From: Patescibacteria group bacterium
GTDB lineage: Bacteria > Patescibacteriota > Kazan-3B-28 > UBA10110
Assembly: GCA_041659905.1 (NCBI GenBank)
Contig: JBAZXK010000001.1
Location: forward strand, 122,670-186,669
Length of the DNA stretch: 64,000 nt
Reading direction: 5' to 3'
Numbering within the stretch: position 1 is the first letter of the stretch; every line of letters starts with the position of its first letter. A program made the translations under genes and the position numbers. Of the stretch, positions 2,246 through 32,299 are shown piece by piece. Under the pieces are notes generated by a model, which made no database searches, was not told where the DNA came from, and worked only from the letters and a program-made list of their open reading frames with translations.

Positions 2246-3384
2246 TTGCTGGATCGGCCGCCCATCAGGGGCCATTCTTCGAGAATGACAAAAAACACAG
2301 AAGCGACTGGCACGGCCAGAAGCATACCTAAGATGCCCATCAGTTTGGCTCCAATCAGAATGATAATAATGATACTGATAGGGTTTAAACCGACGGTGTG
2401 CTGCATCACCTTAGGCACGAGCAGCTTGTTTTCCAATTCTTGCACTAAAATATAAAAAATAGTTACCATCAAGGCAGTTGTCGGCGAAATAGTGAAGGCG
2501 ATCAAAATGGCCGGCACTGCTGAAATAATCGGTCCGATAATGGGGATAATCTCTAATATTCCCGCCAAAATAGCTAAAGTCAGGGCATAAGGTATATTCA
2601 TCAACCAGAGGCCGACATAAACCAACAGCCCGACGATAATGCCCAAAATGATTTGGCCGCGGAGCCAGCCGCCCAATTTTACGCCAATTTTATGGGCAAT
2701 AGTGATTAAACGAGCTTTTTGTTTAATAGGGAACAAGGAAATAAAAAATTTCTTGATCCCATCTTCATCCAAAACTAGATAAAGAGTTAAAATAAACATC
2801 ACTGCCAATGCCGCCGCTCCGTTGAAGAAGCCGATAGTAGTATTAAAGATGTTTTGCAAAAATCCGCCCAAAAAATTAGATAATGAGTTGAGAGTTTCTT
2901 GGGAAGCATTGAGCCAAGCGTCGTTGCCGAGGTTTTTGAGGCTAGTGATCAAATTGCCGAAAGTCTTGAGATAGTCAGGCAACATAGCGGCCAATTGTTG
3001 GATCTGAATGATCAGTGGCGGCACAATGAAATAAACCACTGCGCTAATGAGAGCCAAGATAAATAAATAAACCATAATCACAGCGATAACTCGCGGACAC
3101 TTACGACGGCATAATTTGTCTATCACCGGAGAAAGGGCCGCTGCGATAATAACCGACACAAAAATAATAGCGATAATGTCGCGCACAAAATACAAAAACC
3201 ACAGCGCCAATAAAACCAGAATAACTTTAAAAATGGAGCCAGTTGATATATCTAGAATAGTTTTTTGATTCATTGTTGTTATAGTGGAAGTAGAGTAAAG
3301 CGAACATGATGCTATCGCCCACATTATACATAATATTGATAAAAAATCATTGGAATTTTTAGAAATTAGTTTATCTGATCCCAT
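2242..3384 (-). CDS. AI-2E family transporter-like (UPF0118/PerM) multi-pass membrane protein
   Basis: 380 aa with about 8 predicted TM helices. Composition and length are typical of the AI-2E/YhhT family. Confidence 0.6.
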   Translation of the reverse strand: MGSDKLISKNSNDFLSILCIMWAIASCSLYSTSTITTMNQKTILDISTGSIFKVILVLLALWFLYFVRDIIAIIFVSVIIAAALSPVIDKLCRRKCPRVIAVIMVYLFILALISAVVYFIVPPLIIQIQQLAAMLPDYLKTFGNLITSLKNLGNDAWLNASQETLNSLSNFLGGFLQNIFNTTIGFFNGAAALAVMFILTLYLVLDEDGIKKFFISLFPIKQKARLITIAHKIGVKLGGWLRGQIILGIIVGLLVYVGLWLMNIPYALTLAILAGILEIIPIIGPIISAVPAILIAFTISPTTALMVTIFYILVQELENKLLVPKVMQHTVGLNPISIIIIILIGAKLMGILGMLLAVPVASVFFVILEEWPLMGGRSSK

Positions 3385-4219
3385 TTATCCTGAATTACTA
3401 AAGCAGATTTTTGATCCTCCGGAGCGATTGTGGGTGTGGGGCAATCCAGAAATTTTAAATAATCCGGCCATAGCCATTGTGGGTTCACGTAAACCGAGCG
3501 ATTATGGTGTCCGGGCAGCTGGGTGGTTAGCCCGGGGATTAAGTCCTCATGCCTATATTATTTCCGGTCTGGCTTATGGCGTTGATACGGTGGCCCTGAC
3601 GGAGGCGGCCGATCCAGGCAAAGCCATAGCGGTGATCGGTTCCGGACTAGACAGAGATAGTTTTTATCCGGCCAGTAATTGGCAATTAGCCCAGCGGATC
3701 GTTGAGCATGGCGGAGCCATTATTTCAGAATATCCCATCGGCACGCCTCCCCTGAAACATCACTTTCCGGCTAGAAATCGGATTATCGCTGGACTGGCGT
3801 TAGGCGTGGTAGCAGTAGAAGCTGGTGAGAAAAGCGGAGCCCTGATCACTACCGATCTGGCTTTGCAATTCAATCGCGATGTGTTTGCTATAGCCGGGAG
3901 CGTCTTTGCTCCACAAGCAGTGGGTACTAATAAGTTAATTAAAGACGGTGCTCAAATTATTACCCAGGTCAGCGATGTGCTAACTAGTTTGGGTATCTCT
4001 GCTGCAGATCTTCCTATCCAGCCAAGGCTGGATTTATCAACTGTCGAACAAACCATCATTAATATATTGGCTACTCAAGCAGAGGGGCTATCAGTGAATG
4101 AGTTAACTAGCCGGGTTCAGCTTGACACCCAGAAAGTCAGTAGTACACTGACGATGATGGAAATTAAAGGAGTGGTGAAGAATCTGGGGGCCGGCAAATT
4201 TACCTGCCTGGTAAGTTAG
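3350..4219 (+). CDS. dprA: DNA processing protein DprA (Smf)
   Basis: IAIVGSRKPS..YG, GLAYGVDT, AVIGSGLD, FPARNRIIAGL, EAGEKSGALITT: Rossmann-like DprA core motifs. Confidence 0.88.
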   Translation: MEFLEISLSDPIYPELLKQIFDPPERLWVWGNPEILNNPAIAIVGSRKPSDYGVRAAGWLARGLSPHAYIISGLAYGVDTVALTEAADPGKAIAVIGSGLDRDSFYPASNWQLAQRIVEHGGAIISEYPIGTPPLKHHFPARNRIIAGLALGVVAVEAGEKSGALITTDLALQFNRDVFAIAGSVFAPQAVGTNKLIKDGAQIITQVSDVLTSLGISAADLPIQPRLDLSTVEQTIINILATQAEGLSVNELTSRVQLDTQKVSSTLTMMEIKGVVKNLGAGKFTCLVS

Positions 4220-4301
4220 TGTAAATATAATTTTGTGTTGGATAGATAAGCAGAAAGACCACTACTTGTGTTTTTAGCAAAAAGTATATATCATAAAATT
4301 A

Positions 4302-6959
4302 ATGAACAGTCAAAAAAACATCTTTTGTGATATTTCTTCTCTTTCAAATGAAAGCGATGTGGAACAATTCTTTGTCATCAGATTATTACAATATCTTGGA
4401 TATTCTGATAATCAAATAAAAACCAAAACATCGCTTGATGAATTTCTTATCGGAAAAGGGGCTAAAAACGAAAAGTATAAACCTGATTATGTTTGTTTTG
4501 TGAACAACAAACCAAAGATTGTAATAGACGCAAAATCCCCCCAAGAAAATATTAATAATTATGTTTACCAAGTATCGGGTTATGCTTTAGCCTTAAATAA
4601 AAAATTCAGAAACGAAAACCCAGTTCGGTATACAGTTTTGACTAATGGAGTGGCATTTGCCCTTTATAATTGGGATGAGGAAGAACCTATATTAATTTGT
4701 AATTTTGAAGATTTTAATGAGAATAGTGTACTCTTTAAAAAACTCATTTCCTTGTTGGATGTAAAACATGTAAAACATTTAGCTGGCAATGTAGACTTCT
4801 CGCTTCAGAATTTTTTGAGTAAACCAACTGTAGAAGAAGTAAAATCATCATTTAATAGATGTCATAATATTATTTGGAAAAAGGAAAAGATCAGTCCAAC
4901 AGATGCTTTTTATGAATTTTCTAAGATAATTTTCGTAAAGCTTAGTGAAGATGCTCGTATACACAGATTAAAGAATGAAAATAAAGAACTTCGACGGACT
5001 GATTTTAAGTTTTCAACAGACTGGCTTGAAGAGCGGGAAATTGAAACAGAAAATCCACTAAGTTCAATTTTGTTTAAAGATATTTATGACAAGCTTCAAG
5101 AGGAGATTGATAAAAATAAAAAGAAACAAATTTTCCTAGAAGGTCAAATAGAGTTAAAAGCCCCAACAATCAAAGAGGTGGTTAGAGTGTTACAAAACTA
5201 CGATCTCTATGCCATAGACGAAGACTTAAATGGCCGTATGTTTGAAACATTCTTAAACGCTACAATCAGAGGTAAGGAATTAGGTCAATACTTCACACCC
5301 AGAAAAGTCGTTAAGTTTATGACTAAGCTCGCAAATCTGAGGATTGTAAGAGAGAACGATAAAAACAAAATTGATAGAGTTCTTGACGCATGTTGTGGTA
5401 GTGGAGGTTTTCTCATTGATGCAATGGCAGACTTAACCAGTAAAGTCGAACTCAATAATAGCCTTATACCATATAAAAACGAACTTTTTACTCAAATAAA
5501 AACTGAGGCTCTTTGGGGAATAGAAGCCAATCCCAAAATTTCTAGGGTGGCCAGAATAAACATGTATGCGCATGGTGATGGTGGAAGTAGGATTTATTGT
5601 GCCGACTCATTAGATAAAAACATTTCTATCACTAAAGGCACTAATCCAATTATTAAGAAAGAATTAGAAGAACTAAAGAAACTTCTCGTGGAAGAAGGGG
5701 TTGAATTTGATGTGGTTCTTACTAATCCACCTTTTAGTATGTCTTACAGCCAAAAAGATAAGGATGAAAAAGAAGTCCTTTTACAATATGCAAATTCAGA
5801 TTATACACAAAATCTGACCTTAAAAAGTGGAACAACGGAACTAAAATCTTCAGTAAAATCGAATGTTTTATTTATTGCTAGGTACAACAGTTTATTGAGA
5901 AAAGGTGGAAAATTACTAATTATTTTGGACAACTCTGTTCTTAACAGTTATTCTCATAAAGAATACAGAGATTATATTAGGAATAATTTCATTATTAAAG
6001 CCATTTTTCAATTACCAACTCATACTTTTGTTAATCAAGAGGCGGGTGGTATCACCTCAATTCTATATCTTGAAAAGAGAATATCAGCAGTACAAGAACA
6101 GCCCCCTGTTTTTGCAAGGGAAATAGAAAATGTAGGTCACAGTACATCAGGGAAAGAATTGTCCGTAGATGATTTTGATAATGTCCTGAAGGAATATAAA
6201 AGATACGAATTAGAGGGGAAACTCTATTTTAAAGGTGAAAAACCATTGAAGGATTATGAACACGATCTACTCTTTCTGGTCCCAGCCGAAAAGATTCCAG
6301 ACAGATTAGATGTCTTTTTTCACCAACCAAGCTATCACAATCTTTTAAGTAAACTTCGCTCTTTGAGCAGTAAAGGCAAATGTGAAATAAAGACCTTGTC
6401 TGATTTTGAAAAAATACCGAACATAGACACAGAAGAAACAGATGATTCAGACGCGATATACAAATATATTGATATCAGCACCATTGATAAGGAGAGAGGT
6501 TTTATTATGGAGGATGATTGCGATGAAGGCACAAGGGAACAACTGCCTGATAGGGCTAAGCTTCTAGTTAGACAAAATGACATAATTTTTTCGAAACCAT
6601 TTAGGTCATTGAAAAAAGTAGCTATTATTCCGTTGTCGTTAGACAAACAATTAGCTAGTAGTGGCTTCTACGGCATTCGTCCTTCAAATCGCGAAGAAGC
6701 TTGTATATTATGGAGTATATTCAAATCAAACTTGATACAAGTCCAGTTGCTTCATTTATCTAGCGGTTATACTCAACGGGAATTAAACGAAGAATATTTG
6801 AAAGAGTATCTTTTAATACCAATAACAAACAAAAAAGATGAACTTGCTAGAGCTATAGAAAATAGTATTTCTGAAGCAACTGATGCTCGTCAAGAAGAAT
6901 TAAAGGCAATTAGAAATATCATCTCTGAACCAGAGAAATCAATAGAGTATATAAATTAA
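4302..6959 (+). CDS. Single-polypeptide Type IIG/IIL (MmeI-like) restriction-modification enzyme: N-terminal PD-(D/E)xK nuclease, gamma-class N6-adenine MTase, C-terminal HsdS-like target-recognition domain
   Basis: KPDYVCF...IVIDAK (PD...D-x-K), GQYFTP, motif I VLDACCGSGGFL, motif IV NPPFS. The C-terminus (AKLLVRQNDIIFSKPF...VAIIP...QLASSGFYGIRP) resembles a type I S-subunit TRD. The gene is markedly AT-richer than its flanks and has no SD. Confidence 0.75.
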   Translation: MNSQKNIFCDISSLSNESDVEQFFVIRLLQYLGYSDNQIKTKTSLDEFLIGKGAKNEKYKPDYVCFVNNKPKIVIDAKSPQENINNYVYQVSGYALALNKKFRNENPVRYTVLTNGVAFALYNWDEEEPILICNFEDFNENSVLFKKLISLLDVKHVKHLAGNVDFSLQNFLSKPTVEEVKSSFNRCHNIIWKKEKISPTDAFYEFSKIIFVKLSEDARIHRLKNENKELRRTDFKFSTDWLEEREIETENPLSSILFKDIYDKLQEEIDKNKKKQIFLEGQIELKAPTIKEVVRVLQNYDLYAIDEDLNGRMFETFLNATIRGKELGQYFTPRKVVKFMTKLANLRIVRENDKNKIDRVLDACCGSGGFLIDAMADLTSKVELNNSLIPYKNELFTQIKTEALWGIEANPKISRVARINMYAHGDGGSRIYCADSLDKNISITKGTNPIIKKELEELKKLLVEEGVEFDVVLTNPPFSMSYSQKDKDEKEVLLQYANSDYTQNLTLKSGTTELKSSVKSNVLFIARYNSLLRKGGKLLIILDNSVLNSYSHKEYRDYIRNNFIIKAIFQLPTHTFVNQEAGGITSILYLEKRISAVQEQPPVFAREIENVGHSTSGKELSVDDFDNVLKEYKRYELEGKLYFKGEKPLKDYEHDLLFLVPAEKIPDRLDVFFHQPSYHNLLSKLRSLSSKGKCEIKTLSDFEKIPNIDTEETDDSDAIYKYIDISTIDKERGFIMEDDCDEGTREQLPDRAKLLVRQNDIIFSKPFRSLKKVAIIPLSLDKQLASSGFYGIRPSNREEACILWSIFKSNLIQVQLLHLSSGYTQRELNEEYLKEYLLIPITNKKDELARAIENSISEATDARQEELKAIRNIISEPEKSIEYIN

Positions 6960-6966
6960 AATTCGT

Positions 6967-9186
6967 ATGTCTGAATCAAAAAAATTAGTAGTAGTGGAAT
7001 CGCCCACCAAGGCGCGCACTATCAGTCATATTTTAGGCAACCGCTACGTGGTAGAGGCATCGATGGGACATTTGCGCGATTTGCCTAAAGCTAAATTAGG
7101 CGTCGATGTAGAACACGATTTTTCCCCTGATTACATTATTCCTACTGCCAGCCGCAAAGTGGTAACTAAATTAAAAAATCTGTATGAACAATACCCGGAT
7201 CTTATTTTAGCAACTGACGAAGACAGGGAAGGCGAAGCGATCGGCTGGCATATCACGCAAGCTCTCGGGATTGATCCGGTAAAAGTTCCGCGAATTGCCT
7301 TCCATGAAATTACTCGGGAGGCGGTTAAAGAAGCGCTGGAACATCCGCGGCAGCTTGATTTTAATTTAGTGGATGCCCAACAGGCCCGCCGCATTTTGGA
7401 TCGATTAGTCGGTTATAAATTATCCCCACTGTTATGGAAAAAAATATTTAGGGGGTTATCGGCTGGCCGAGTGCAATCAGTCACGGTGCGGTTGATTGTC
7501 GACCGCGAACGCGAAATCCAAAAGTTTACTCCAGAAGAATATTGGAAGATCAAAGTTGTCTATCAAGCCAAGCAGGGAAAATTTACTGCCGAGTTGGCTA
7601 CCATTGGTGATCAGCCAGCAGTAGTAAATAATCAAATTACGGCCGACCAGGTTGTGGCCGATCTTAAAGCAAACCCCTCGCAAATTACTAAATTAGTTAC
7701 TGCAGATAGGCTAAGATACCCCGGAGAGCCCTTAACCACCTCTACCTTGCAGCAGCAAGCCGGAACGCGCTTTGGATTCAGTGTTAAAAAAACCATGCTC
7801 TTAGCTCAACAGCTTTATGAAGGAGTCGCTTTGGGTGAAGGCGGTCATGCTGGTTTAATTACTTATATGCGTACTGATTCGGTTAATATTTCTTCGCGAG
7901 TGATTGATGATATTCGCAGTTGGGTGGATCAACAATTCGGCCCGCAATATGTACCGACCAAAGCCTATACGTACAAAAGTAAAAGCAAAACTGCCCAAGA
8001 AGCGCACGAAGCGATCCGTCCATCGGTGCCGTCTCGGACTCCAGACAGCCTATCGCCTTTTCTATCTCCAGATCAGGCCAAGCTGTATCGTTTAATCTGG
8101 GAAAGAACCATGGCTTCCCAAATGGCCCCGGCCATTTTGAGTCAAACTGATGTGATAGTGACATCGACAGATAAAACTTTAACTGCCCAGGGAGTGCAGA
8201 TCAAATTCCCGGGATTCTTTACTGTGCTCACTAAATCGCCGGTGTCAGAAATCACCCTGCCAGCCTTAACCCAAAATGAACCAGTACAGGCCCAGGAAGT
8301 GATGTCAGAACAAAAATTCACCGAACCGCCTGAGCGGTACACCGAGCCAGCTTTAGTTAAAACCTTAGAGAAACTAGGGATTGGCCGGCCGTCCACTTAT
8401 GCACCGACATTAACGACTATTGCTACCCGGGGTTATGTTAAAAAAGAAAAACGCTATTTAATTCCCCAAGAAACTGGTTTTTTGGTGAATGATTTTTTGG
8501 CACAACATTTTCCTGATATTGTTGATGTTCATTTTACCGCCCGGATGGAAGATGATCTAGACGAAATCGCCGACGGCAAACGCAAGTGGCAAGATGTGAT
8601 CAGGGAATTTTATCAGACTTTTGCTAAAATCCTAACCGAGAAGGAAAAAACATTATCCCGGCAAAATGAAGGTGAAAAAACAGACGAGGTGTGCGAAAAA
8701 TGCGGAGGGGCGATGGTGATCAAACGGGGCAGATTTGGTAAATTCATGGCTTGCACCAACTTTCCTAAATGTAAAAACACTAAACCGCTCGATGAAAAAA
8801 GCGGCGCACCAGAGCCGGTAGAAGTCACCGACGTAAAATGCGCTAAATGCGGCAATCCGATGGTGAAGCGCAAAAGCAGATACGGAGATTTTTTGGGCTG
8901 TAGCGGGTATCCGAAATGCGATTATATCCAAAATCTCAATCCTAATAATGGCGAAGTGGGCGGGAGTTGTCCTAAATGCAGTAGCGGTAAGGTCGTAGAA
9001 CGGCGCACCAAGCGAGGAAAGGTTTTTTATGGTTGCAGCGTGTATCCGAAATGCGATTTTGCCAGTTGGGACAGGCCAGTGCCAGAGAAATGCCCAACTT
9101 GTGGCGGTTGGATGGCAGCGTCTAAGACTAAAAAGGCTCCAGTATGCCAGAGTTGTGGTTTTGTCGATAAGGAGATTAAGGCTTAA
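6967..9186 (+). CDS. topA: DNA topoisomerase I with C-terminal C4 zinc-ribbon repeats
   Basis: TOPRIM N-terminus (VVVESPTKARTI, DEDREGE), catalytic region GLITYMRTDS, and at least four CxxC...CxxC zinc ribbons at the C-terminus. Confidence 0.93.
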   Translation: MSESKKLVVVESPTKARTISHILGNRYVVEASMGHLRDLPKAKLGVDVEHDFSPDYIIPTASRKVVTKLKNLYEQYPDLILATDEDREGEAIGWHITQALGIDPVKVPRIAFHEITREAVKEALEHPRQLDFNLVDAQQARRILDRLVGYKLSPLLWKKIFRGLSAGRVQSVTVRLIVDREREIQKFTPEEYWKIKVVYQAKQGKFTAELATIGDQPAVVNNQITADQVVADLKANPSQITKLVTADRLRYPGEPLTTSTLQQQAGTRFGFSVKKTMLLAQQLYEGVALGEGGHAGLITYMRTDSVNISSRVIDDIRSWVDQQFGPQYVPTKAYTYKSKSKTAQEAHEAIRPSVPSRTPDSLSPFLSPDQAKLYRLIWERTMASQMAPAILSQTDVIVTSTDKTLTAQGVQIKFPGFFTVLTKSPVSEITLPALTQNEPVQAQEVMSEQKFTEPPERYTEPALVKTLEKLGIGRPSTYAPTLTTIATRGYVKKEKRYLIPQETGFLVNDFLAQHFPDIVDVHFTARMEDDLDEIADGKRKWQDVIREFYQTFAKILTEKEKTLSRQNEGEKTDEVCEKCGGAMVIKRGRFGKFMACTNFPKCKNTKPLDEKSGAPEPVEVTDVKCAKCGNPMVKRKSRYGDFLGCSGYPKCDYIQNLNPNNGEVGGSCPKCSSGKVVERRTKRGKVFYGCSVYPKCDFASWDRPVPEKCPTCGGWMAASKTKKAPVCQSCGFVDKEIKA

Positions 9187-9226: not shown

Positions 9227-9676
9227 ATGAAGAAGGGTAAAGATCAGTCTAACCAGGCCAATTCTTTGCCTAAAAGGCTCTTGGCTCCACCTGGGCTCAT
9301 TATGACCGGCAGTGTTTTGTTGCTAGTTTTGGCAGAAAAATATTGGTTTAGAGGAGCCTTAGCTGAAGATCTCCCTTCTGGCGATACGGCAGCCGGTTTT
9401 AACGTTTTTGCTGATCTGATTCAAGAAGCAGCAGGGCCGCTGGTGGGGGTGATCGCCGTTGCGGCGGTGGTAGCCGGAGGAATTATTTATGCTCTTTCCG
9501 GCGGGGAACCAGGGAGAGTTAAAATGGCTAAAAATGTTATTTTATCAGCTATTTACGGCCTGATACTATATATTCTTATGAAATGGTTAATGCAACTTTT
9601 AGGTACTACAGTTACTGATTATTTCTCCGATTTAACTAACATTGCTTGGGTGATGTTTGGTCCTAAGCTTGGCTAA
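9227..9676 (+). CDS. small membrane protein with signal-like N-terminus and two hydrophobic helices (VirB2/TrbC pilin-like topology)
   Basis: Basic N-terminus, then hydrophobic stretches GPLVGVIAVAAVVAGGIIYAL and VILSAIYGLILYILMKWLMQLL separated by a short polar loop. No SD. Confidence 0.45.
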   Translation: MKKGKDQSNQANSLPKRLLAPPGLIMTGSVLLLVLAEKYWFRGALAEDLPSGDTAAGFNVFADLIQEAAGPLVGVIAVAAVVAGGIIYALSGGEPGRVKMAKNVILSAIYGLILYILMKWLMQLLGTTVTDYFSDLTNIAWVMFGPKLG

Positions 9677-12553: not shown

Positions 12554-14494
12554 TTGGTTATGATTCAGGTACGATTTAAACCAGATTTGGGGAAGATGCC
12601 GCGGCAGCCGGGGTGCTATTTGATGTCTGACAAAACTGGCAAAGTAATTTATGTGGGCAAGGCGGTAGATCTCCGCAAACGAGTGGCGTCTTATTGGAAC
12701 AAAACTAACCAGCCGATTAAGACCAGTAAACTGTTGGAAAAAGTAGCCAAACTGAATTTTATGATCACCGATACCGAAACCGAAGCTTTGATTCTAGAAA
12801 ATCAGTTAATCAAAAAGCACATGCCCCAATTCAATATTCTACTGCGGGATGATAAAAGCTATCAGTATATTAGGATTGATCTTAATCAGCCCTATCCGGT
12901 GATTGAGGTGGTGCGCAATCCACGCACAATTAAAAAAGAGGCTCGGGTGCGCTATTTTGGGCCCTATACCAGCGGATTGGCGGTAAAATATACTTTACAG
13001 TTGATCAATAAAATTTTTCCGCTGTGTGCTAATGCGGCCATTTTAAATAAAAATGTGCCAACTTCATGTCATTCTGAGCGTAACGAAGTGAAGTCGAAGA
13101 ATCTACGAGCACCAACTTCGAGATCCCTCGACTGCGCTCGGGATGACAAAAGAAAAGGTGGGGTGAAACCCTGTTTGAATTGGCATCTGGGCAAATGTCT
13201 GGGTGTATGTGTCGGACAAAGTTCCAGTGCCGAATATCATCAAGTGGTGCATGAAGTAATCGATTTTTTGAGCGGTAAGGCCAAAGATTGGCGGAAGTAT
13301 TTGCGAGAGCGGATGGAAGCGGCTGCGGCGGGCAAACGCTTTGAAGACGCGCTGAAGCTCCGCGAACAAATTGCCGCCCTTGATATTATTGTTTCCAAGC
13401 AAAAAGTGGCCCAGCCGGATGAATTGATTAGTCAGGATATTTGGGGCTGGCTGGTAACCTCCGAACAGGCGGTGGTGACTATTTCGAAGATCAGACAAGG
13501 AAAAGTAATCGATTATCAAACATTTGTGTTGCGTTTGCCGATGGAAATCAAGTTAGACGAATTTGTCGGGGAAGCGCTCCGGTCAATTTATTCCGCCACC
13601 CTGGATAACTGGCCGAAAGAAATTTTATTGCCGCATTTGCCTAAAGATAGGGTGGCGTTAGAAAAATGGTTGAGTAATTTAGCCGGTCATACCGTCAGAA
13701 TTGCCGTGCCGCAAAAGGGGATTAAAAAACAATTATCTCTCTTGGTGCAAAAAAATGCCGTAGAACAAGCCAGCGCTAAAGTTGGCGCCAATTTGCAAAT
13801 TAAAACTGCCCTCACCCGGCTGCAAAAGTTATTGCAGATCAAACGCCTCAAGCGGATTGAAGCGTATGACATTTCTCATTTGGGCGGGACGGCCACCGTG
13901 GGTTCTATGGTAGTATTTGTGGATGGCAAACCAGCCAAAGCGCAATATCGGCGGTTTCGGATTAAAACCGTGCGTGGGATTGACGATTATGCGTCTTTGG
14001 GCGAAATGATTTATCGCCGCCTGCGTCCGCGGCGCTTAGCCGACAAACGATTTGCCGAAAATCTGCCCGATTTGATTTTGATTGATGGCGGTAAAGGGCA
14101 ATTAAACACTATCATTCGCCAAACCAATCAAATCAATTTACCTAATCTCCCTAAGATTATAAGTTTAGCTAAACGGGAAGAAGAAATTTTTGCGTCCGAT
14201 CAAGCTACGGGGATTAAATTATCTTTGAGTTCGCCGGAACTGCAACTATTACAACGAATTCGTGACGAAGCCCATCGCTTCGCGATTTCTTACCAAGCTG
14301 TGTTGCATAGCCGGGAGTTACGAGGCACCACCAAGATCCCCGGCATCGGCCCGGCCACGCAGAAAAAACTAGTCAAAGTCTTCGGAAGCTTGCGGGCCGC
14401 CCGCCAGGCCAGTCTAAGTGAGCTAGAAAAAATAGTTGGACAAAAAGCCCGCCTGATCAAAGATAATTTGTCAGATTCTGCCAGAGGTTTATGA
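12554..14494 (+). CDS. uvrC: Excinuclease ABC subunit C (UvrC) carrying an in-frame ~33-codon insertion from a palindromic repeat
   Basis: GIY-YIG (PGCYLM...GKVIYVGKA), Cys-rich region KPCLNWHLGKCLGVCV, and C-terminal RNaseH-like and HhH domains. The extra peptide SCHSERNEVKSKNLRAPTSRSLDCARDDKRKGG is encoded by repeat A1. Confidence 0.92.
   Translation: MVMIQVRFKPDLGKMPRQPGCYLMSDKTGKVIYVGKAVDLRKRVASYWNKTNQPIKTSKLLEKVAKLNFMITDTETEALILENQLIKKHMPQFNILLRDDKSYQYIRIDLNQPYPVIEVVRNPRTIKKEARVRYFGPYTSGLAVKYTLQLINKIFPLCANAAILNKNVPTSCHSERNEVKSKNLRAPTSRSLDCARDDKRKGGVKPCLNWHLGKCLGVCVGQSSSAEYHQVVHEVIDFLSGKAKDWRKYLRERMEAAAAGKRFEDALKLREQIAALDIIVSKQKVAQPDELISQDIWGWLVTSEQAVVTISKIRQGKVIDYQTFVLRLPMEIKLDEFVGEALRSIYSATLDNWPKEILLPHLPKDRVALEKWLSNLAGHTVRIAVPQKGIKKQLSLLVQKNAVEQASAKVGANLQIKTALTRLQKLLQIKRLKRIEAYDISHLGGTATVGSMVVFVDGKPAKAQYRRFRIKTVRGIDDYASLGEMIYRRLRPRRLADKRFAENLPDLILIDGGKGQLNTIIRQTNQINLPNLPKIISLAKREEEIFASDQATGIKLSLSSPELQLLQRIRDEAHRFAISYQAVLHSRELRGTTKIPGIGPATQKKLVKVFGSLRAARQASLSELEKIVGQKARLIKDNLSDSARGL
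13068..13147 (+). repeat. Family-A palindromic mini-repeat copy A1 (terminal IR gtcattctgagcg/cgctcgggatgac), inside uvrC
   Basis: 13-nt terminal inverted repeats flank a palindromic core. The core matches the reverse complement of the copy at 60465-60544 and the copy at 49478-49550. Confidence 0.8.
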
Positions 14495-14905: not shown

Positions 14906-16075
14906 ATGGACACAATTAACCCTATCCAATCAGATGCTTCAGCCCAACCCGGAGGAGACGGCTCTCTTTTAAAAAGATTTCTGTCTGAAAGCGAAACTGC
15001 CCAAATGAACATTCTCAAGCCGTTCAAACTGGTTAGTGGGGTTTTGGGTGATCTGCGCGAGCGCGAACGAGAAGTATTGGTTATGCGCTACGGTTTATCT
15101 AATAGTGAAGCCAGTAAGGAAACGCTAGAAAGTATCGGCCGGCGTTTTACTGTGACCCGGGAAAGAGTCCGCCAAATTGAACACGCTGCCTTAAAAAAGG
15201 TGAGCAAGAAATTTTCCGGATCATTGAAACCAATTATTAAAGCTATTGAGAGTTATCTTCTGGCCAATGGTAATATTGCTGAAATGGAACACTTGGCTCA
15301 ATATTTTCATTTGCAGCCAGACAATTTAGATGCTCAGCTTGATGCCAAAGCTTTACGGTTATTAATGGATGCCTATGATAAAGTAGTCCCGCTCAAAAAA
15401 CAACCTTTGTTTAAAGAAGGCTGGGTAGCCAAGACTATCACTCAAGATTTATTAGTTCAAATTGAAGCTCAGGCGCAAAAGACTTTAGAACTCTCCGGTA
15501 AAGCTATATCCGAAACAGAATTAGTGCGGCAAATCAATCAACAATTACCCAATATTGATAGCGCTTTGATCGCCGGGGTTTTCAAAGTCAGCCATAAGCT
15601 AGGCTTAGATCATCAAGGAGCTTGGGGTTTATCGGCTTGGCCGCTGGTGATGCCGCGGCGGATCCGCGATAAAGTGTTTATTGTCTTAGAAGAAGCTGGC
15701 AAACCGCTGCACTTTGAAGACATTACTCGTTTAATCCAAAAAAGATATCCATCCGAGAAAAAAGTATTGAATCGGACTGTTCATAATGAACTGATTGGCG
15801 ACGCTAGATTTGTCCTAGTAGGGCGCGGGATTTATGCCCTGAGAGTCTGGGGATATCAACCCGGAGTCGTGGCGGATGTTATCAAGCAAATATTACAAAA
15901 AGCAGGTCGGCCGCTAACGGTAGGAGAAATAGTGGCGGAAGTGCTGAAGAGCCGACAAGTGAAAAAGAATACTATTATTGCCAACTTACAGAATCACGCC
16001 TTGTTCAAAAAGGTAGCTAAATCTACTTATGTATTGTCGGGTGATCCATCTAACCCCGAACCCCATGTTAATTAA
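14906..16075 (+). CDS. sigma-70 region-4-like HTH protein with a ~280-aa uncharacterized C-terminal domain
   Basis: LREREREVLVMRYGL...ETLESIGRRFTVTRERVRQIEHAALKKV is sigma-70 region 4 with no region 2. It is coupled to the downstream VirD4-like gene by a 12-nt gap. Confidence 0.6.
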   Translation: MDTINPIQSDASAQPGGDGSLLKRFLSESETAQMNILKPFKLVSGVLGDLREREREVLVMRYGLSNSEASKETLESIGRRFTVTRERVRQIEHAALKKVSKKFSGSLKPIIKAIESYLLANGNIAEMEHLAQYFHLQPDNLDAQLDAKALRLLMDAYDKVVPLKKQPLFKEGWVAKTITQDLLVQIEAQAQKTLELSGKAISETELVRQINQQLPNIDSALIAGVFKVSHKLGLDHQGAWGLSAWPLVMPRRIRDKVFIVLEEAGKPLHFEDITRLIQKRYPSEKKVLNRTVHNELIGDARFVLVGRGIYALRVWGYQPGVVADVIKQILQKAGRPLTVGEIVAEVLKSRQVKKNTIIANLQNHALFKKVAKSTYVLSGDPSNPEPHVN

Positions 16076-16087
16076 GGAGACACACTG

Positions 16088-21644
<5,557 letters not shown>

Positions 21645-26835: not shown

Positions 26836-27240
26836 TTGGCTAATTTAGAAAAGATGGCTTCTGGAAACGAAAATCCTTACCATTCTCCGATCACTCCTGA
26901 ATTTTCTGGATCAAAAGAACCAGCGGGCAATAACGGGTTGGTTTCGGAATCACAAACAGAAATATCTCGACATGAAGCTGCCCCAATCGATATAGATGGA
27001 GAAAATGTTTTCCCGGAAGATGAAACGATCCAAGAGGGAATCCATTCAGATGACGCAGACGAACGGGAAATGGCCAAAACATTAGCCACCCGTTTTCATA
27101 AAAACAAAACCAGCCGGCTAGATTTAGATGTAGAACAATTATTTATATTGAGTGAAGCTGGTCTAATCGATATAACGCCACAGAAAATGACAGATTTGTT
27201 GACTAAACTAAAACATCAAGAAGAAGATCTGTTAAACTAA
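26836..27240 (+). CDS. acidic hypothetical protein
   Basis: ORF with AAGGAGGG SD. D/E-rich, with no recognizable motifs. Confidence 0.45.
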   Translation: MANLEKMASGNENPYHSPITPEFSGSKEPAGNNGLVSESQTEISRHEAAPIDIDGENVFPEDETIQEGIHSDDADEREMAKTLATRFHKNKTSRLDLDVEQLFILSEAGLIDITPQKMTDLLTKLKHQEEDLLN

Positions 27241-27265: not shown

Positions 27266-29713
27266 ATGCTCTGGGGAGTAGTTATCACCATTCTAATTTT
27301 AGCCGGACTTGCTGTAGGCGGGTATTTTTTATCGAAGAATCGTAAGCAAAGCTCTGTCCGCCAACAGGCAGCTGCCGCTCTGAAAAGAAAACTCTTTCGG
27401 ATTACTGTTCCCAAGGGCGATCCGGAAACAGACAAAGCCAAAGAACTCAAAGACCTGATCGCCCCAGTCGAGGTGTTATTGCGCAACTTGCATGCGATGC
27501 AAGAAACTTTGCGCGGCGAGTACCTTACCCTAGAAATATTAGCTACCCAAGGATTTATCTCATTCTATGCCAGCGTACCGGGCGCACTGGCATCGTTATT
27601 GGAGAGACAAATTACAGCTCAGTATTCTGAAGCCACAGTGGAAGAAGTGGACGATCCCAATATTTTCCCTAAACAATGCGCTACCGCCGCTGTGCAGCTA
27701 GCTTTGAAGAAAGACTTCGTTTTTCCTATTCGAACTTACAAAACTTTCGAGACTGATACGCTCAATGCGCTGACTAATGCTTTGAGTAAATTAAACGAGA
27801 GCGCCGAGGGGGCCGGAGTGCAGATTTTAGTTCGTCCGGTGGACGATAAATGGCAAAAGAAGGGACAATTTGTCGCTAGCCAAATGAAGGCAGGCAAATT
27901 TTCTGATGATTCGTTGGCTCAAGGCGTGCTGAAGGGGATTGGAGGATTGTTAGTGCCCGGGGCAAGTAAAACCAACGATAAATCCAAACCAGAAGAGCTT
28001 AAACCGCTGACATCGGCCCAAGAAAAAATTATTCAAACGATTGGCGAAAAAGCGGCTCAGCCAGGTTTTGAAGTAGTCATCCGGTTAGTCACAGCCGCAG
28101 CTACTCCCGAAAATGCCAAAATTAACTTAAATAATATCCTGAGTAGTTTTAGCCAATTTACTTCCGAGACCAACAGATTTACTATCGCCAAGTTGCCAGA
28201 AGAAAAAGTGATGACACAGTTTATTTTCCGGTTATTCAGTTTAGGTAAGCCGGATATTCTCAACACCGAGGAAGTGGCCTCACTCTGGCATTTGCCGACA
28301 GCCCGGCTAGAAACGCCAAATATCCGCTGGATGCGCGCCAAGAAACTACCGCCGCCCAGTAACTTACCAAAAGAGGGGATTACCTTAGGAAAAAGCGTCT
28401 ATCGGGGAGTAGAAGCGATCATTAAAATGGAAGATGATGATCGGCGCCGGCATATCTATTGCATTGGTAAAACCGGGACGGGGAAAACTACTTGGATGCA
28501 GAATTTAGCTTACCAAGATATTATGGCCGGCAAGGGCGTCTGTGTCGTAGATCCGCATGGCGATATGGCTGATTGGTTGCTGGCGCGTATTCCGAAAGAA
28601 CGTGTGGATGACGTGATCTTGTTTTATCCTCCTGATCTTGATCGTCCCATGGGACTCAATATGTTAGAAGCCAAAACTTCTGCGCAAAAACAGGAAGTCG
28701 TTGCCCAATTGATTGCTATTTTCTATAAATTATTCGATCCTACTGGCAGCAATCAAATCATCGGCCCGATGTTCGAGCATTACATGCGTAATGCCATGCT
28801 CGCTCTCTTGGCGGATGACGAAAACGGAACTACTCTCGTAGAAATCCCGCGCATGTTCACAGACACCGAATTTCGCAATCAAAAGCTGGCTAAAGTGACA
28901 GATCCGGTGGTTAAACAATTCTGGTTGCAAGAATATGCCCAATCGCAACGCGGTCAGCAGTCGGCGGATATGTTGAGCTATGTGGTTAGCAAAATCGGCC
29001 GGTTTATCAGTAACGATATGATGCGGAATATTGTCGGGCAGACTAAGTCGGCCTTTGATCTGCGCGATATTATGGATAATAAGAAAATTCTGCTAATCAA
29101 TTTGGCCAAAGGCCTGACGGGAGATATCAACAGCAACCTGCTCGGATTTATTTTGGTGTCTAAGATTCAGATGGCCGCTTTATCACGGGCAGATATTCCG
29201 GAAAGTGAGCGCCAAGATTTTTATTTGTATATTGATGAGTTCCAAAATGTAACCACGGATTCAATTTCCATTATCTTATCAGAAGCCCGCAAATATCATT
29301 TAAATTTAATCGTCGCGCATCAGTTTGTGGCACAGTTGGATGAAAAGATCCGTGAGGCGGTTTTGGGAAATGTGGGGACTATGGTAAGCTTTACTATTGG
29401 CGCTACGGATGTGGAGGTGGTCGGCAAGCAATTTGCCCCGGAAGTGAGCGCCAATGACCTGATTAACATCGAAAATCGCAACGCCTATATTAAATTATTG
29501 ATTGATGGGGCAGTCAGCAAGCCATTTAACTTAACTGCGCTGCCGCCGATGGGGGAGGCCAGACCAAAAGTGGCGCAAGCCCTGAAGAATTTGTCCCGCT
29601 TGAAATATGGCCGGGATCGGAGAATAGTAGAGACAGAAATTATCCGGCGTAATCAGCTTCCGCCCAAATCAGCTAATCCACCTAAAACAGGGGATAAACC
29701 TACTTCTGTCTAA
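27266..29713 (+). CDS. membrane-anchored VirD4/TraG/TrwB-like ATPase, paralog 2
   Basis: N-terminal TM; Walker A CIGKTGTGKT, DPHGD, LYIDEFQNV. Same architecture as the CDS at 16088-18979. Confidence 0.7.
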   Translation: MLWGVVITILILAGLAVGGYFLSKNRKQSSVRQQAAAALKRKLFRITVPKGDPETDKAKELKDLIAPVEVLLRNLHAMQETLRGEYLTLEILATQGFISFYASVPGALASLLERQITAQYSEATVEEVDDPNIFPKQCATAAVQLALKKDFVFPIRTYKTFETDTLNALTNALSKLNESAEGAGVQILVRPVDDKWQKKGQFVASQMKAGKFSDDSLAQGVLKGIGGLLVPGASKTNDKSKPEELKPLTSAQEKIIQTIGEKAAQPGFEVVIRLVTAAATPENAKINLNNILSSFSQFTSETNRFTIAKLPEEKVMTQFIFRLFSLGKPDILNTEEVASLWHLPTARLETPNIRWMRAKKLPPPSNLPKEGITLGKSVYRGVEAIIKMEDDDRRRHIYCIGKTGTGKTTWMQNLAYQDIMAGKGVCVVDPHGDMADWLLARIPKERVDDVILFYPPDLDRPMGLNMLEAKTSAQKQEVVAQLIAIFYKLFDPTGSNQIIGPMFEHYMRNAMLALLADDENGTTLVEIPRMFTDTEFRNQKLAKVTDPVVKQFWLQEYAQSQRGQQSADMLSYVVSKIGRFISNDMMRNIVGQTKSAFDLRDIMDNKKILLINLAKGLTGDINSNLLGFILVSKIQMAALSRADIPESERQDFYLYIDEFQNVTTDSISIILSEARKYHLNLIVAHQFVAQLDEKIREAVLGNVGTMVSFTIGATDVEVVGKQFAPEVSANDLINIENRNAYIKLLIDGAVSKPFNLTALPPMGEARPKVAQALKNLSRLKYGRDRRIVETEIIRRNQLPPKSANPPKTGDKPTSV

Positions 29714-32273: not shown

Positions 32274-32299
32274 AGGCCCACACTATGTGGGCTTTTTAT
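32274..32299 (+). terminator. rho-independent terminator
   Basis: ggcccacactatgtgggc followed by tttttatttt. Confidence 0.65.

What the first reader, a model, noticed from the sequence alone, without database searches (positions are those of the whole stretch)
4302..6959. AT-rich MmeI-like single-chain Type IIG/IIL restriction-modification gene wedged into the conserved dprA-topA pair
dprA (smf) and topA are adjacent in many bacteria. Here an 885-aa ORF with a lower GC content and no SD lies between them. It combines a PD-(D/E)xK nuclease N-terminus (KPDYVCF...IVIDAK), a gamma-class adenine MTase (QYFTP; DACCGSGGFL; NPPFS) and a C-terminal HsdS-like TRD. This is the MmeI-family architecture, which modifies one strand and cuts at a distance. 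It is likely a horizontally acquired defence island of one gene.
Basis: partly seen in the sequence, partly recalled or inferred. Interest (0 to 1): 0.55.

Follow-up and report, generated by a model that had tools for sequence, protein, structure and literature searches.

The report
Inserted single-gene restriction-modification enzyme, BsaXI-related

Summary
The 885-aa ORF at 4302-6959 is real and intact. It is much more AT-rich than the other 46 ORFs of the window (GC 0.33, z -4.6; GC3 0.27, z -4.0). It has three parts: an N-terminal HSDR_N PD-(D/E)xK nuclease, a gamma-class N6-adenine methyltransferase, and one C-terminal HsdS-type recognition domain ending in a 40-residue helix. The nuclease residues (D62, D/E76, K78) are conserved in all 51 aligned family members.

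Nine related Patescibacteria contigs keep uvrB-AI2E-dprA-topA-uvrA, with dprA 5-120 bp from topA and no such gene. This is therefore a 2.74-kb lineage-specific insertion at the dprA stop codon.

It is not an MmeI-family enzyme. The two Pfam MmeI models that hit stay below threshold and the other three do not hit. MmeI is missed by a family-profile search of PDB, and its recognition-domain fold does not match. The closest relative is the RM subunit of the Type IIB enzyme BsaXI (profile E 4e-50), plus Type I S subunits. Some family members carry a separate S subunit with two recognition domains.

The most likely mechanism is therefore a HaeIV-like homodimer on a symmetric bipartite site. This is inferred, not shown. 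It is a new member of a known kind, of modest interest.

The parts
3350..4219 (+). dprA, the upstream native gene. Its stop codon TAG (4217-4219) is formed at the left insertion junction.
   Evidence: Pfam DNA_processg_A E 9e-67 plus DprA_WH. Homology to relatives runs up to ...GGTAAGTTA|G.
4219..6958 (+). Inserted foreign segment of about 2.74 kb (82-bp leader plus the RM gene), absent from all relatives.
   Evidence: In L003, L004, L005, L006, L009 and L092-L095, dprA and topA are 5-120 bp apart with no RM homolog. GC 0.33 against 0.44 in the flanks.
4212..4218 (.). Left copy (TAAGTTA) of a possible imperfect 7-bp target duplication.
   Evidence: Both window junctions align to the same columns of the relatives' ...TAAGTTAAA... 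sequence. The match is 6 of 7 in AT-rich DNA, so it is only suggestive.
6952..6958 (.). Right copy (TAAATTA) of the possible target duplication. The RM stop codon TAA (6957-6959) sits where relatives have the dprA stop.
   Evidence: The RM C-terminus is 3 residues (YIN) longer than in homologs.
4220..4301 (+). AT-rich 82-bp leader upstream of the RM gene, with no ORF and no SD. It presumably carries the gene's own promoter (inferred).
   Evidence: Sequence. The only strong promoter-like site nearby is at 4122-4149, inside dprA; counts are 20 found against 12.8 +/- 3.3 in shuffles, only weakly above them.
4302..6959 (+). 885-aa single-chain R-M-S restriction-modification gene.
   Evidence: An identical protein occurs in two other assemblies. 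AF2 model: pLDDT 87.9, pTM 0.73.
4302..4751 (+). Nuclease domain (aa 1-150), PD-(D/E)xK of the HSDR_N type. Catalytic residues are D62 (nt 4485-4487), D76 and K78 (nt 4527-4535). E17/E21 and Q90xxxY94 are also conserved.
   Evidence: HSDR_N 30.6 bits and HSDR_N_2 26.8 bits, both above cut-off. E17, E21, P61, D62, A77, K78 and Y94 are in 51/51 sequences; D/E76 in 51/51.
4752..5201 (+). Helical connector (aa 151-300) between nuclease and methyltransferase.
   Evidence: AF2 helices H168-297. This stretch aligns with the BsaXI RM connector.
5202..6221 (+). Gamma-class N6-adenine methyltransferase domain (aa 301-640). Motif X GQYFTPR (nt 5286-5303), motif I DACCGSGGF (nt 5385-5411), motif IV NPPF (nt 5724-5735).
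   Evidence: N6_Mtase E 3.6e-33. The motifs are invariant in 51/51 sequences. The order X-I-IV followed by the TRD defines the gamma class.
6222..6833 (+). Linker plus a single HsdS-type target recognition domain (aa 641-844).
   Evidence: phmmer to HsdS 5ybb_D/3okg E 1e-9; profile E 1.4e-24. Domain model pLDDT 91.8, Foldseek to HsdS E 5.8e-11 and to the BsaXI S subunit E 1.3e-6. NCBIfam MAD5 S subunit and PADLOC Specificity_I also hit.
6834..6953 (+). C-terminal 40-residue amphipathic helix (aa 845-884). It is the counterpart of an HsdS conserved-region (CR) dimerisation helix.
   Evidence: AF2 H845-884 and H205-242 of the domain model. It aligns to TRD1+CR1 of 5ybb_D and to the TRD2-CR2 unit of the two-TRD S protein of L084.
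6967..9186 (+). topA, the downstream native gene. Its start is 7 nt after the RM stop, so it is probably now co-transcribed with the RM gene (inferred).
   Evidence: Toprim, Topoisom_bac and Zn_ribbon_Top1 hits. No terminator-like site on the + strand between the genes.

Best explanation
The gene encodes a self-contained restriction-modification enzyme in one polypeptide. It has a Type-I-style PD-(D/E)xK nuclease, a helical connector, an HsdM-like gamma-class N6-adenine methyltransferase and one HsdS-type recognition unit (TRD plus CR helix). It belongs to the BcgI/BsaXI-related lineage (Type IIB within Type IIG/IIC), not to the MmeI lineage.

Proposed mechanism (inferred):
1. Two chains pair through their C-terminal CR helices, as half-size S subunits do. 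This gives an (R-M-TRD)2 particle equivalent to (RM)2S.
2. The particle reads a symmetric bipartite site, two inverted 3-4 bp half-sites separated by a fixed spacer.
3. It methylates one adenine in each half-site, so both strands are marked and no second methyltransferase is needed.
4. On unmethylated DNA it cuts at fixed distances on both sides, as proposed for HaeIV (2 R~gammaM~[GAY]; GAY N5 RTC).

The gene arrived by horizontal transfer as a 2.74-kb segment inserted at the dprA stop codon. It now sits inside the dprA-topA transcription unit.

Shown here: domain identity, conservation of catalytic residues, family relationship, and the insertion. Inferred: dimerisation, site symmetry, two-sided cleavage, and co-transcription.
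For: Domains and motifs. Catalytic residues of both enzymes are invariant in 51 homologs of 41-66% identity.

Nearest relatives:
- RM.BsaXI by phmmer (E 1.3e-22).
- RM.BsaXI by family profile across residues 16-597 (E 3.9e-50).
- RM.BsaXI by Foldseek on a model of pLDDT 87.9 (E 1.3e-19).

The TRD-CR unit matches Type I and BsaXI S subunits.

Three independent family members (L084/L085, L097, L098) have an RM of 630-657 aa, 52% identical to residues 5-649 here. Each is followed by a separate 468-474-aa S protein. That S protein has two TRDs in L084 and L097; for L098 only the second TRD and a Methylase_S hit were seen. This is the BcgI/BsaXI (RM)2S layout (PMC11997821; PMC3874165), which implies one RM per TRD.

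Half-size S subunits with a single TRD dimerise and read symmetric sites, for example EcoR124I-delta50 and EcoDXXI-deltaC. HaeIV is listed as 2 R~gammaM~[GAY] (PMC3874165).

The gene is solitary in every context examined.

Insertion. Composition. The family is always AT-richer than its flanks, in 9 of 9 loci. It is often next to one IS4-type transposase family or on plasmids or virus-like elements.
Against: - There is no direct evidence for dimerisation, site symmetry or cleavage geometry. There is no methylome, and no multimer model could be run.
- BpuSI also has a truncated-HsdS-like TRD yet reads a contiguous asymmetric site rather than a bipartite one (PMC3185434). It is rank 4 in the whole-chain fold search.
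- The CR helix is the least conserved segment (28% mean identity).
- The TRD is about as conserved as the nuclease (47% against 51%). This is unusual for a specificity module, although the homologs were selected by total score.
- The 657 + 240 aa 'split' form in L083 looks like a simple frameshift of a fused gene, so it says nothing about stoichiometry.
- No HaeIV sequence was available for a direct comparison.
Confidence: 0.6

Rival explanations
1. Monomeric Type IIG enzyme behaving like MmeI or BpuSI. One chain reads a contiguous asymmetric site, methylates one strand only, and cuts once at a fixed distance downstream after two bound molecules interact.
For: The domain order R-M-TRD is the same. 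The gene is solitary, as MmeI is (PMC2582602). BpuSI, which reads a contiguous asymmetric site, has an HsdS-like TRD and is rank 4 in the whole-chain fold search (E 3.5e-17). Weak sub-threshold MmeI_N and MmeI_Mtase hits exist.
Against: The MmeI models are all below cut-off or absent. MmeI and BpuSI are not found by the family profile even at E <= 10, while BsaXI scores 3.9e-50. The TRD fold matches MmeI only at E 3.9. A full CR helix is retained. Sister clades use two-TRD S subunits. BpuSI needs two extra methyltransferases, and none are present here.
Confidence: 0.25
2. Effectively an orphan or regulatory DNA methyltransferase. The N-terminal nuclease-like domain would be vestigial or used only for DNA binding. 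This fits the public annotation 'N-6 DNA methylase'.
For: Public names are 'N-6 DNA methylase' and 'type I restriction enzyme M protein'. The HSDR_N scores are modest (30.6 and 26.8 bits).
Against: E17, E21, P61, D62, D/E76, A77, K78 and Y94 are conserved in 51/51 homologs down to 41% identity. That argues for a selected catalytic site. The whole nuclease-connector-MTase stretch aligns to the active enzyme BsaXI. The behaviour (AT-rich, mobile, IS- and plasmid-linked) is typical of selfish RM genes.
Confidence: 0.08
3. A component of a larger multi-gene system, either a Type I system lacking its HsdR or the methylation-associated defence system MADS (MAD2 + MAD5 fused). Partners would be encoded elsewhere.
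For: The best NCBIfam hits are MAD2 (E 7e-53) and the MAD5 S subunit (E 2e-8). PADLOC mad2 hits at E 1e-35, and many Type I MTase models also hit.
Against: The scores are far below the equivalog cut-offs (179.9 against 720; 33.6 against 400). No other mad genes, hsdR or helicase lie next to it here or in 10 other contexts. It carries its own nuclease.
Confidence: 0.04
4. An ancestral resident gene that was lost from the relatives, rather than gained here.
For: Only nine relatives could be examined. The closest has 80% TopA identity and its upstream region is cut off (L007).
Against: All nine relatives with both genes (TopA identity 58-77%) have a tight dprA-topA junction. So do distant phyla. 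GC and GC3 are 4 sd below the native genes. The nearest homologs with a source name are from Woesearchaeota archaea. The RM stop codon occupies the ancestral dprA stop position.
Confidence: 0.03

Closest known systems
HaeIV (Haemophilus aegyptius), a single-polypeptide Type IIB/IIG enzyme listed as 2 R~gammaM~[GAY], GAY N5 RTC (PMC3874165)
   Same: One chain carries the nuclease, a gamma-class MTase and a single TRD. No companion methyltransferase is listed for it in PMC3874165. A homodimer on a symmetric bipartite site is proposed for HaeIV, and that is the behaviour inferred here.
   Different: The site, spacing and cleavage geometry of the window enzyme are unknown.
BsaXI (Type IIB; cryo-EM 8w0p/8w2p; (RM)2S; PMC11997821)
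   Same: It is the closest solved relative. Nuclease, helical connector and MTase align end to end (profile E 3.9e-50; Foldseek E 1.3e-19). The BsaXI S subunit matches the TRD-CR unit (E 1.3e-6). Sister clades of this family keep the RM + two-TRD S layout.
   Different: Here one TRD-CR is fused to the RM chain instead of being in a separate two-TRD S subunit. Identity is only about 20%. The BsaXI-specific 'paddle' was not examined.
AloI/PpiI/TstI/CjeI single-chain Type IIB enzymes (R~gammaM~TRD1~TRD2)
   Same: They are single-chain RMS enzymes with HsdS-type recognition modules (PMC3874165; PMC11997821).
   Different: Those are ~1250 aa with two TRD-CR units. This protein is 885 aa with one.
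MmeI (Type IIL; 5hr4) and its family
   Same: The domain order is nuclease, gamma-class MTase, C-terminal TRD. The gene is solitary and the size is similar.
   Different: The MmeI Pfam models fail. There is no profile hit to 5hr4. The TRD fold does not match (E 3.9). The MTase is of the HsdM type (GQYFTPR) rather than the MmeI/Eco57I type (GAHYTS). The nuclease is PD-X13-DAK with QxxxY, against D70-X9-EMK in MmeI.
BpuSI (Type IIG; 3s1s)
   Same: It is a single chain with a PD-ExK nuclease, helical connector, gamma-class MTase and a truncated-HsdS-like TRD. It gives a whole-chain Foldseek hit at E 3.5e-17.
   Different: BpuSI's TRD is interrupted by an extra domain and it has two companion methyltransferases. 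The family profile does not find it, and the TRD match is weak (E 3.6e-3).
Type I R-M systems and half-S ('Type 1 1/2') methyltransferases
   Same: It shares the HsdM-like MTase, the HsdS-like TRD-CR, and the HSDR_N nuclease with a QxxxY motif. The principle that single-TRD S proteins dimerise to read symmetric sites comes from these systems (PMC3874165).
   Different: There is no HsdR motor or ATPase, so no translocation is expected. All functions are in one chain.

Membership tests
Type IIG/IIC (combined restriction-and-modification polypeptide) | PD-(D/E)xK nuclease domain fused N-terminally to the methyltransferase, with catalytic residues intact | tested here: met
   HSDR_N and HSDR_N_2 are above cut-off. 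D62, D/E76 and K78 are in 51/51 sequences.
Type IIG/IIC (combined restriction-and-modification polypeptide) | Gamma-class N6-adenine MTase (motif order X, I, IV, then TRD) | tested here: met
   N6_Mtase E 3.6e-33. GQYFTPR at 328-334, DACCGSGGF at 362-370, NPPF at 475-478, TRD at 694-842.
Type IIG/IIC (combined restriction-and-modification polypeptide) | Cleavage at a fixed distance from the recognition site | not testable with these tools
   Needs biochemistry.
MmeI family (Type IIL) | Matches to the MmeI-specific Pfam domains (MmeI_N, MmeI_hel, MmeI_Mtase, MmeI_TRD, MmeI_C) at the gathering threshold | tested here: not met
   MmeI_N 20.8 bits and MmeI_Mtase 23.7 bits, against a cut-off of 27. 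The other three models give no hit.
MmeI family (Type IIL) | Sequence or structure relationship to MmeI (5hr4), including its TRD | tested here: not met
   5hr4 is not found by phmmer or by the family profile at E <= 10. It is not in the top 50 whole-chain Foldseek hits. The TRD-only Foldseek match has E 3.9, probability 0.16.
MmeI family (Type IIL) | Solitary gene with no second methyltransferase | tested here: met
   There are no MTase neighbours here or in relatives. This feature is also expected for a HaeIV-like dimer, so it does not discriminate.
MmeI family (Type IIL) | Methylation of only one strand of an asymmetric site | not testable with these tools
   Needs a methylome.
Type IIB, BcgI/BsaXI/HaeIV-like | RM moiety homologous to a BcgI/BsaXI-type RM subunit | tested here: met
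   RM.BsaXI: phmmer E 1.3e-22; profile E 3.9e-50 over 16-597; Foldseek E 1.3e-19.
Type IIB, BcgI/BsaXI/HaeIV-like | HsdS-type TRD followed by a CR helix | tested here: met
   The family's separate S subunits carry two such units in L084 and L097.
Type IIB, BcgI/BsaXI/HaeIV-like | One RM per TRD in a two-TRD particle (here: a homodimer) | not testable with these tools
   Inferred from RM + two-TRD S relatives and from half-S precedent (PMC3874165). No multimer modelling was available.
Type IIB, BcgI/BsaXI/HaeIV-like | Double-strand cuts on both sides of a bipartite site | not testable with these tools
   Needs biochemistry.
Type I R-M | HsdR with a SF2 ATPase/translocase motor | tested here: not met
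   There is no helicase or ATPase domain in the protein, and no hsdR nearby.
MADS (methylation-associated defence system) | MAD2 and MAD5 equivalog scores, and the accompanying mad genes | tested here: not met
   179.9 bits against a cut-off of 720, and 33.6 against 400. The neighbours are dprA and topA.

The most novel reading that the evidence does not exclude
This would be the first recognised representative of a large, uncharacterised clade of compact R-M-halfS enzymes. More than 100 members score E <= 1e-198, and all are annotated only as 'N-6 DNA methylase'. The clade would circulate between ultra-small CPR bacteria and DPANN archaea (63-65% identity to Woesearchaeota proteins), travelling with one co-diverging IS4-type transposase. 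In this genome, insertion into the dprA-topA unit would couple expression of a restriction enzyme to the DNA-uptake and DNA-processing operon of an organism that depends on imported DNA.
Probability: 0.1. Interest if true: 0.5.

Novelty: new member of a known kind. Interest (0 to 1): 0.27.

Why it matters
It corrects a family assignment. The gene is annotated publicly as a plain methyltransferase and was read by the first stage as MmeI-like. It is in fact a complete BsaXI/HaeIV-type restriction-modification enzyme, so a bipartite symmetric methylation motif should be expected in this MAG's methylome.

It also gives a clean, base-level example of a single RM gene inserting at a stop codon inside a conserved operon of a streamlined Patescibacteria genome, with nine empty-site relatives.

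The family shows three forms side by side: fused half-S, frameshift-split, and separate two-TRD S. This illustrates the modular evolution proposed for Type I, IIB and IIG enzymes. None of it is surprising to a specialist in restriction-modification.

Tried and rejected
- **Terminal inverted repeats.** I searched around the insertion and around the Tnp-RM-S units of L084, L097 and L098. Only AT-rich noise appeared and no convincing ends.
- **18-nt imperfect repeat.** The repeat at 4283-4300 and 6946-6963 (15 of 18), which precedes both the RM and topA start codons, is not shared with the upstream regions of homologs. I treat it as the host spacer plus chance, not as a defined element end.
- **Promoter and terminator scan.** Promoter-like sites were 20 against 12.8 +/- 3.3 in shuffles, only weakly above them. 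Terminator-like sites were at the level of shuffles.
- **Small ORFs upstream of homologs.** A weak HTH protein in L088 and a weak zinc-ribbon protein in L089 are not conserved and are absent here. No controller protein can be claimed.
- **MADS membership.** Rejected on score cut-offs and gene context.
- **The listing of cluster members.** This added no organism names.
- **Rfam and tRNA scans.** Nothing was found near the locus, so this is not a tRNA-targeted island.
- **The 657 + 240 aa pair in L083.** I considered it as a natural RM + half-S system of the BplI A1B1 type. The two ORFs abut at the equivalent of residue 645 of a fused gene, so a frameshift is the simpler reading.
- **P0035.** It looked like a TRD-less form but is an N-terminally truncated copy.
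Full report
**Observation**

The window contains an 885-aa ORF with an ATG start at 4302-6959 on the + strand. It lies between dprA (3350-4219; DNA_processg_A E 9e-67) and topA (6967-9186; Toprim, Topoisom_bac and three zinc ribbons).

GC falls from 0.44-0.51 in the flanks to 0.30-0.37 across the ORF. I compared it with 46 other ORFs of the window:

| Measure | This gene | Other ORFs | z |
|---|---|---|---|
| GC | 0.330 | 0.439 +/- 0.023 | -4.6 |
| GC3 | 0.271 | 0.430 +/- 0.040 | -4.0 |

It is the lowest of all ORFs. Its synonymous-codon divergence is about 2 sd above the mean but not outside the native range.

The absence of a Shine-Dalgarno sequence is real but uninformative. Only 11 of 47 ORFs here have one, and neither dprA nor topA does.

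**What the protein is**

Pfam finds N6_Mtase (E 3.6e-33, residues 307-636). It also finds HSDR_N and HSDR_N_2 above their cut-offs (residues 17-128) and the related Eco57I methylase model.

- **Nuclease motif.** It reads E17..E21..P61-D62..D76-A-K78..Q90xxxY94. All of E17, E21, P61, D62, A77, K78 and Y94 are invariant in 51 homologs of 41-66% identity. Position 76 is D in 49 sequences and E in 2.
- **Methyltransferase motifs.** GQYFTPR, DACCGSGGF and NPPF are invariant. They occur in the order X, I, IV with the recognition domain last, which defines the gamma class.
- **C-terminal region.** The last 245 residues match Type I specificity subunits by sequence (5ybb_D/3okg E 1e-9; profile E 1.4e-24). 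They also hit the NCBIfam MAD5 S-subunit and PADLOC Specificity_I models.
- **Full-length model.** AlphaFold2 gives a confident model (pLDDT 87.9, pTM 0.73). It ends in a 40-residue helix, residues 845-884.
- **C-terminal model.** A separate model of the last 245 residues (pLDDT 91.8) was searched against PDB:

| PDB target | E-value |
|---|---|
| Type I HsdS (5ybb_D) | 5.8e-11 |
| BsaXI S subunit | 1.3e-6 |
| PacII, MjaXIP, EcoKI and M. genitalium S subunits | 6e-6 to 5e-4 |
| BpuSI | 3.6e-3 |
| MmeI | 3.9 (probability 0.16) |

**Which family**

The MmeI assignment fails.
- MmeI_N (20.8 bits) and MmeI_Mtase (23.7 bits) are below their cut-off of 27. MmeI_hel, MmeI_TRD and MmeI_C do not hit at all.
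- A profile of the family finds RM.BsaXI, a Type IIB enzyme, at E 3.9e-50. The alignment runs from the nuclease through the connector to the end of the methyltransferase (profile 16-597 against chain 47-629).
- After BsaXI the profile finds HsdS and a series of HsdM proteins. It does not find MmeI or BpuSI even at E <= 10.
- Whole-chain Foldseek ranks the three BsaXI entries first (E 1e-19 to 8e-18), followed by BpuSI, a Type I MTase and DrdV. MmeI is not in the top 50.
- Motif X is GQYFTPR, as in HsdM. MmeI has GAHYTS, and its nuclease motif is D70-X9-E80MK82 (PMC2582602).
- MADS is also excluded. MAD2 scores 179.9 bits against a cut-off of 720, and no other mad genes are present.

**Family anatomy**

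The family is large. All of the best 120 database hits have E <= 1e-198. Most members are 870-900 aa and carry the same fused layout.

A clade about 52% identical over residues 5-649 has a different layout. It pairs an RM protein of 630-657 aa with a separate, overlapping downstream gene of 468-474 aa (L084/L085, L097, L098).
- In L084, the second half of this protein is 35% identical to the C-terminal unit here.
- In L084, both halves match S-subunit TRDs in PDB.
- In L097, both TRDs match the C-terminal unit here by tblastn. In L098, only the second TRD matched, plus a Methylase_S hit.

That is the BcgI/BsaXI arrangement. BsaXI was shown by cryo-EM to be (RM)2S (PMC11997821).

One locus, L083, has 657 + 240 aa ORFs that abut at the equivalent of residue 645. 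The 240-aa part is 61% identical to the C-terminus here. This looks like a frameshifted fused gene.

**Mechanism**

In this lineage one RM moiety serves one TRD, and two TRD-CR units are held together by their CR helices. A chain with a single TRD-CR is therefore expected to homodimerise.

This is what truncated half-S subunits of Type I enzymes do, producing symmetric sites. Examples are EcoR124I-delta50 (GAA N7 TTC) and EcoDXXI-deltaC (TCA N8 TGA). It is also what was proposed for HaeIV, the one characterised single-chain enzyme listed as 2 R~gammaM~[GAY], which cuts on both sides of GAY N5 RTC (PMC3874165).

A dimer would methylate both strands. That explains why the gene is solitary in every context examined.

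This mechanism is inferred. BpuSI shows that an HsdS-like TRD can also serve an enzyme that reads a contiguous asymmetric site. The CR helix here is poorly conserved (28% mean identity). No multimer model or methylome could be obtained. I put the HaeIV-like model at about 0.55-0.6 and the monomeric MmeI/BpuSI-like behaviour at about 0.25.

**Insertion**

A TopA scan of 185,579 species genomes returned 80 loci. dprA lies within 8 kb upstream of topA in 51 of them, and none carries a homolog of this gene.

The five nearest Patescibacteria loci with both genes are L003, L004, L005, L006 and L009 (TopA identity 58-76%). Four metagenome contigs (L092-L095, DprA identity 60-72%) add to these. All keep the uvrB, AI-2E transporter, dprA, topA, uvrA order as far as their contigs reach, with dprA and topA 5-120 bp apart.

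Aligning the junctions shows where homology breaks:
- Homology to dprA ends at ...GGTAAGTTA|G (position 4218).
- Homology resumes at TAAATTA|AAATTCGT-ATG (position 6958).

The insert is thus about 2,740 bp: an 82-bp leader plus the ORF. The dprA stop became TAG. The RM gene ends on the TAA that occupies the ancestral dprA stop position, three codons later than its homologs end.

TAAGTTA and TAAATTA may be an imperfect 7-bp target duplication, but in such AT-rich DNA this is only suggestive.

There are 7 nt between the RM stop and the topA start, and no terminator-like site on that strand. topA is therefore probably now transcribed through the RM gene (inference).

**Mobility of the family**
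- Named close homologs (63-65% identity) are from Woesearchaeota archaea, and a more distant one is from Nitrospirota.
- Full-length homologs of 34-35% identity sit alone on mobilizable actinobacterial plasmids.
- In all nine loci examined the gene is AT-richer than its flanks, by 3-19 points.
- In six of ten contexts it is adjacent to one family of IS4-type DDE transposases (46-65% pairwise identity). In L084 the transposase gene overlaps the RM start by 17 nt.
- In L087 a homolog is wedged into a purine-biosynthesis cluster, much as this one is wedged into dprA-topA.
- No transposase is present in this window.

RM genes inserting into genomes with or without short duplications, and linked to insertion sequences, are a documented phenomenon (PMC2853133).

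**Verdict**

The horizontal-acquisition claim and the generic Type IIG architecture are supported. The MmeI/Type IIL assignment and its predicted one-strand behaviour are not supported.

The gene is a new member of a known kind: a BsaXI-related, HaeIV-like single-chain R-M-halfS enzyme. Interest is modest. Its value lies in correcting the annotation, in a very clean empty-site comparison in a CPR genome, and in a family that shows fused and split S arrangements and apparent bacteria-archaea exchange.

Noticed in passing
L083:4370-5626, L084:4767-6017, L088:3190-3801, L089:3376-4629, L097:1564-2823, L098:638-1870: One family of IS4-type DDE_Tnp_1 transposases (46-65% pairwise identity) lies next to the RM homolog in 6 of 10 contexts examined. 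This holds for both the fused and the RM + two-TRD-S forms. In L084 the transposase gene overlaps the RM start by 17 nt. The two genes seem to travel and diverge together, but no terminal inverted repeats were found.
   Followed up: partly
L001, L083, L084, L086-L091 (RM gene against flanks): The RM homolog is lower in GC than its flanking DNA in all 9 loci, by 3 to 19 points. This includes high-GC actinobacterial plasmids (0.59 against 0.64-0.66).
   Followed up: partly
L087:5001-7637: A 63%-identical homolog sits alone inside a purine-biosynthesis cluster (adenylosuccinate lyase, AIR synthase, IMPDH, adenylosuccinate synthetase | RM | AICARFT/IMPCHase). Gene GC is 0.376 against 0.564 in the flanks. 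This is a second case of the gene wedged into a conserved cluster.
   Followed up: no
L084:7961-9370, L097:4737-6143, L098:3806-5230: Separate S subunits of 468-474 aa overlap the 3' end of a 630-657-aa RM gene. Two TRDs were confirmed in L084 and L097. Each unit sits in a virus- or plasmid-like context (Prim-Pol/D5 primase, Holliday-junction resolvase, integrase fragments).
   Followed up: partly
window 4283-4300 and 6946-6963: An imperfect 18-nt direct repeat (AGTATATAtcaTAAAATT / AGTATATAaatTAAAATT, 15 of 18) ends 1-3 nt before the start codons of the RM gene and of topA respectively. It is not present upstream of homologs. It may be chance or a duplicated host spacer.
   Followed up: partly
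window 4312-4318: An A7 tract lies in codons 4-6 of the RM gene, and a C6 tract at 4537-4542. These are short homopolymers that could in principle allow slipped-strand switching. There is no evidence of length variation; the copies in L001 and L002 encode the identical protein.
   Followed up: no
window 59-20982 and 32296-35613: The neighbourhood is unusually rich in DNA-repair and DNA-processing genes: uvrB, dprA, topA, uvrA, uvrC (12554-14494), NAD-dependent ligase (19006-20982) and mfd/TRCF (32296-35613, minus strand).
   Followed up: partly
window 9227-9676, 16088-18979, 27266-29713: A T4SS-pilin-like small protein lies directly after topA. Two VirD4/TraG-type coupling-ATPase-like proteins (963 and 815 aa) lie further on. 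The pilin gene is weakly conserved in L007 (48% identity), and no match to it was found in the other close relatives.
   Followed up: no
window 14906-16075: A 389-aa protein combines a sigma-70 region 4 domain with HARE-HTH domains.
   Followed up: no
window 20979-21644 and 26836-27240: These are the two other ORFs with low GC3. One is a HAD-family hydrolase (GC 0.363, GC3 0.320) whose start overlaps the ligase stop. The other is a 134-aa ORF with no Pfam match (GC3 0.304).
   Followed up: no
L099:98-4012: An N-terminally truncated copy of the RM gene, lacking the nuclease domain, is followed directly by a 645-aa large serine recombinase.
   Followed up: partly
L090:6698-7219 and L091:6689-7162: On both actinobacterial plasmids the RM homolog is followed within 20 bp by a small hypothetical gene (173 and 157 aa). 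Whether the two are homologous was not checked.
   Followed up: no
L088:4783-4998 and L089:4807-5004: Small ORFs abut or overlap the start of the RM homolog. One is a weak winged-HTH match and the other a weak zinc-ribbon match. They are possible controller proteins, but they are not conserved and are absent from the window.
   Followed up: partly
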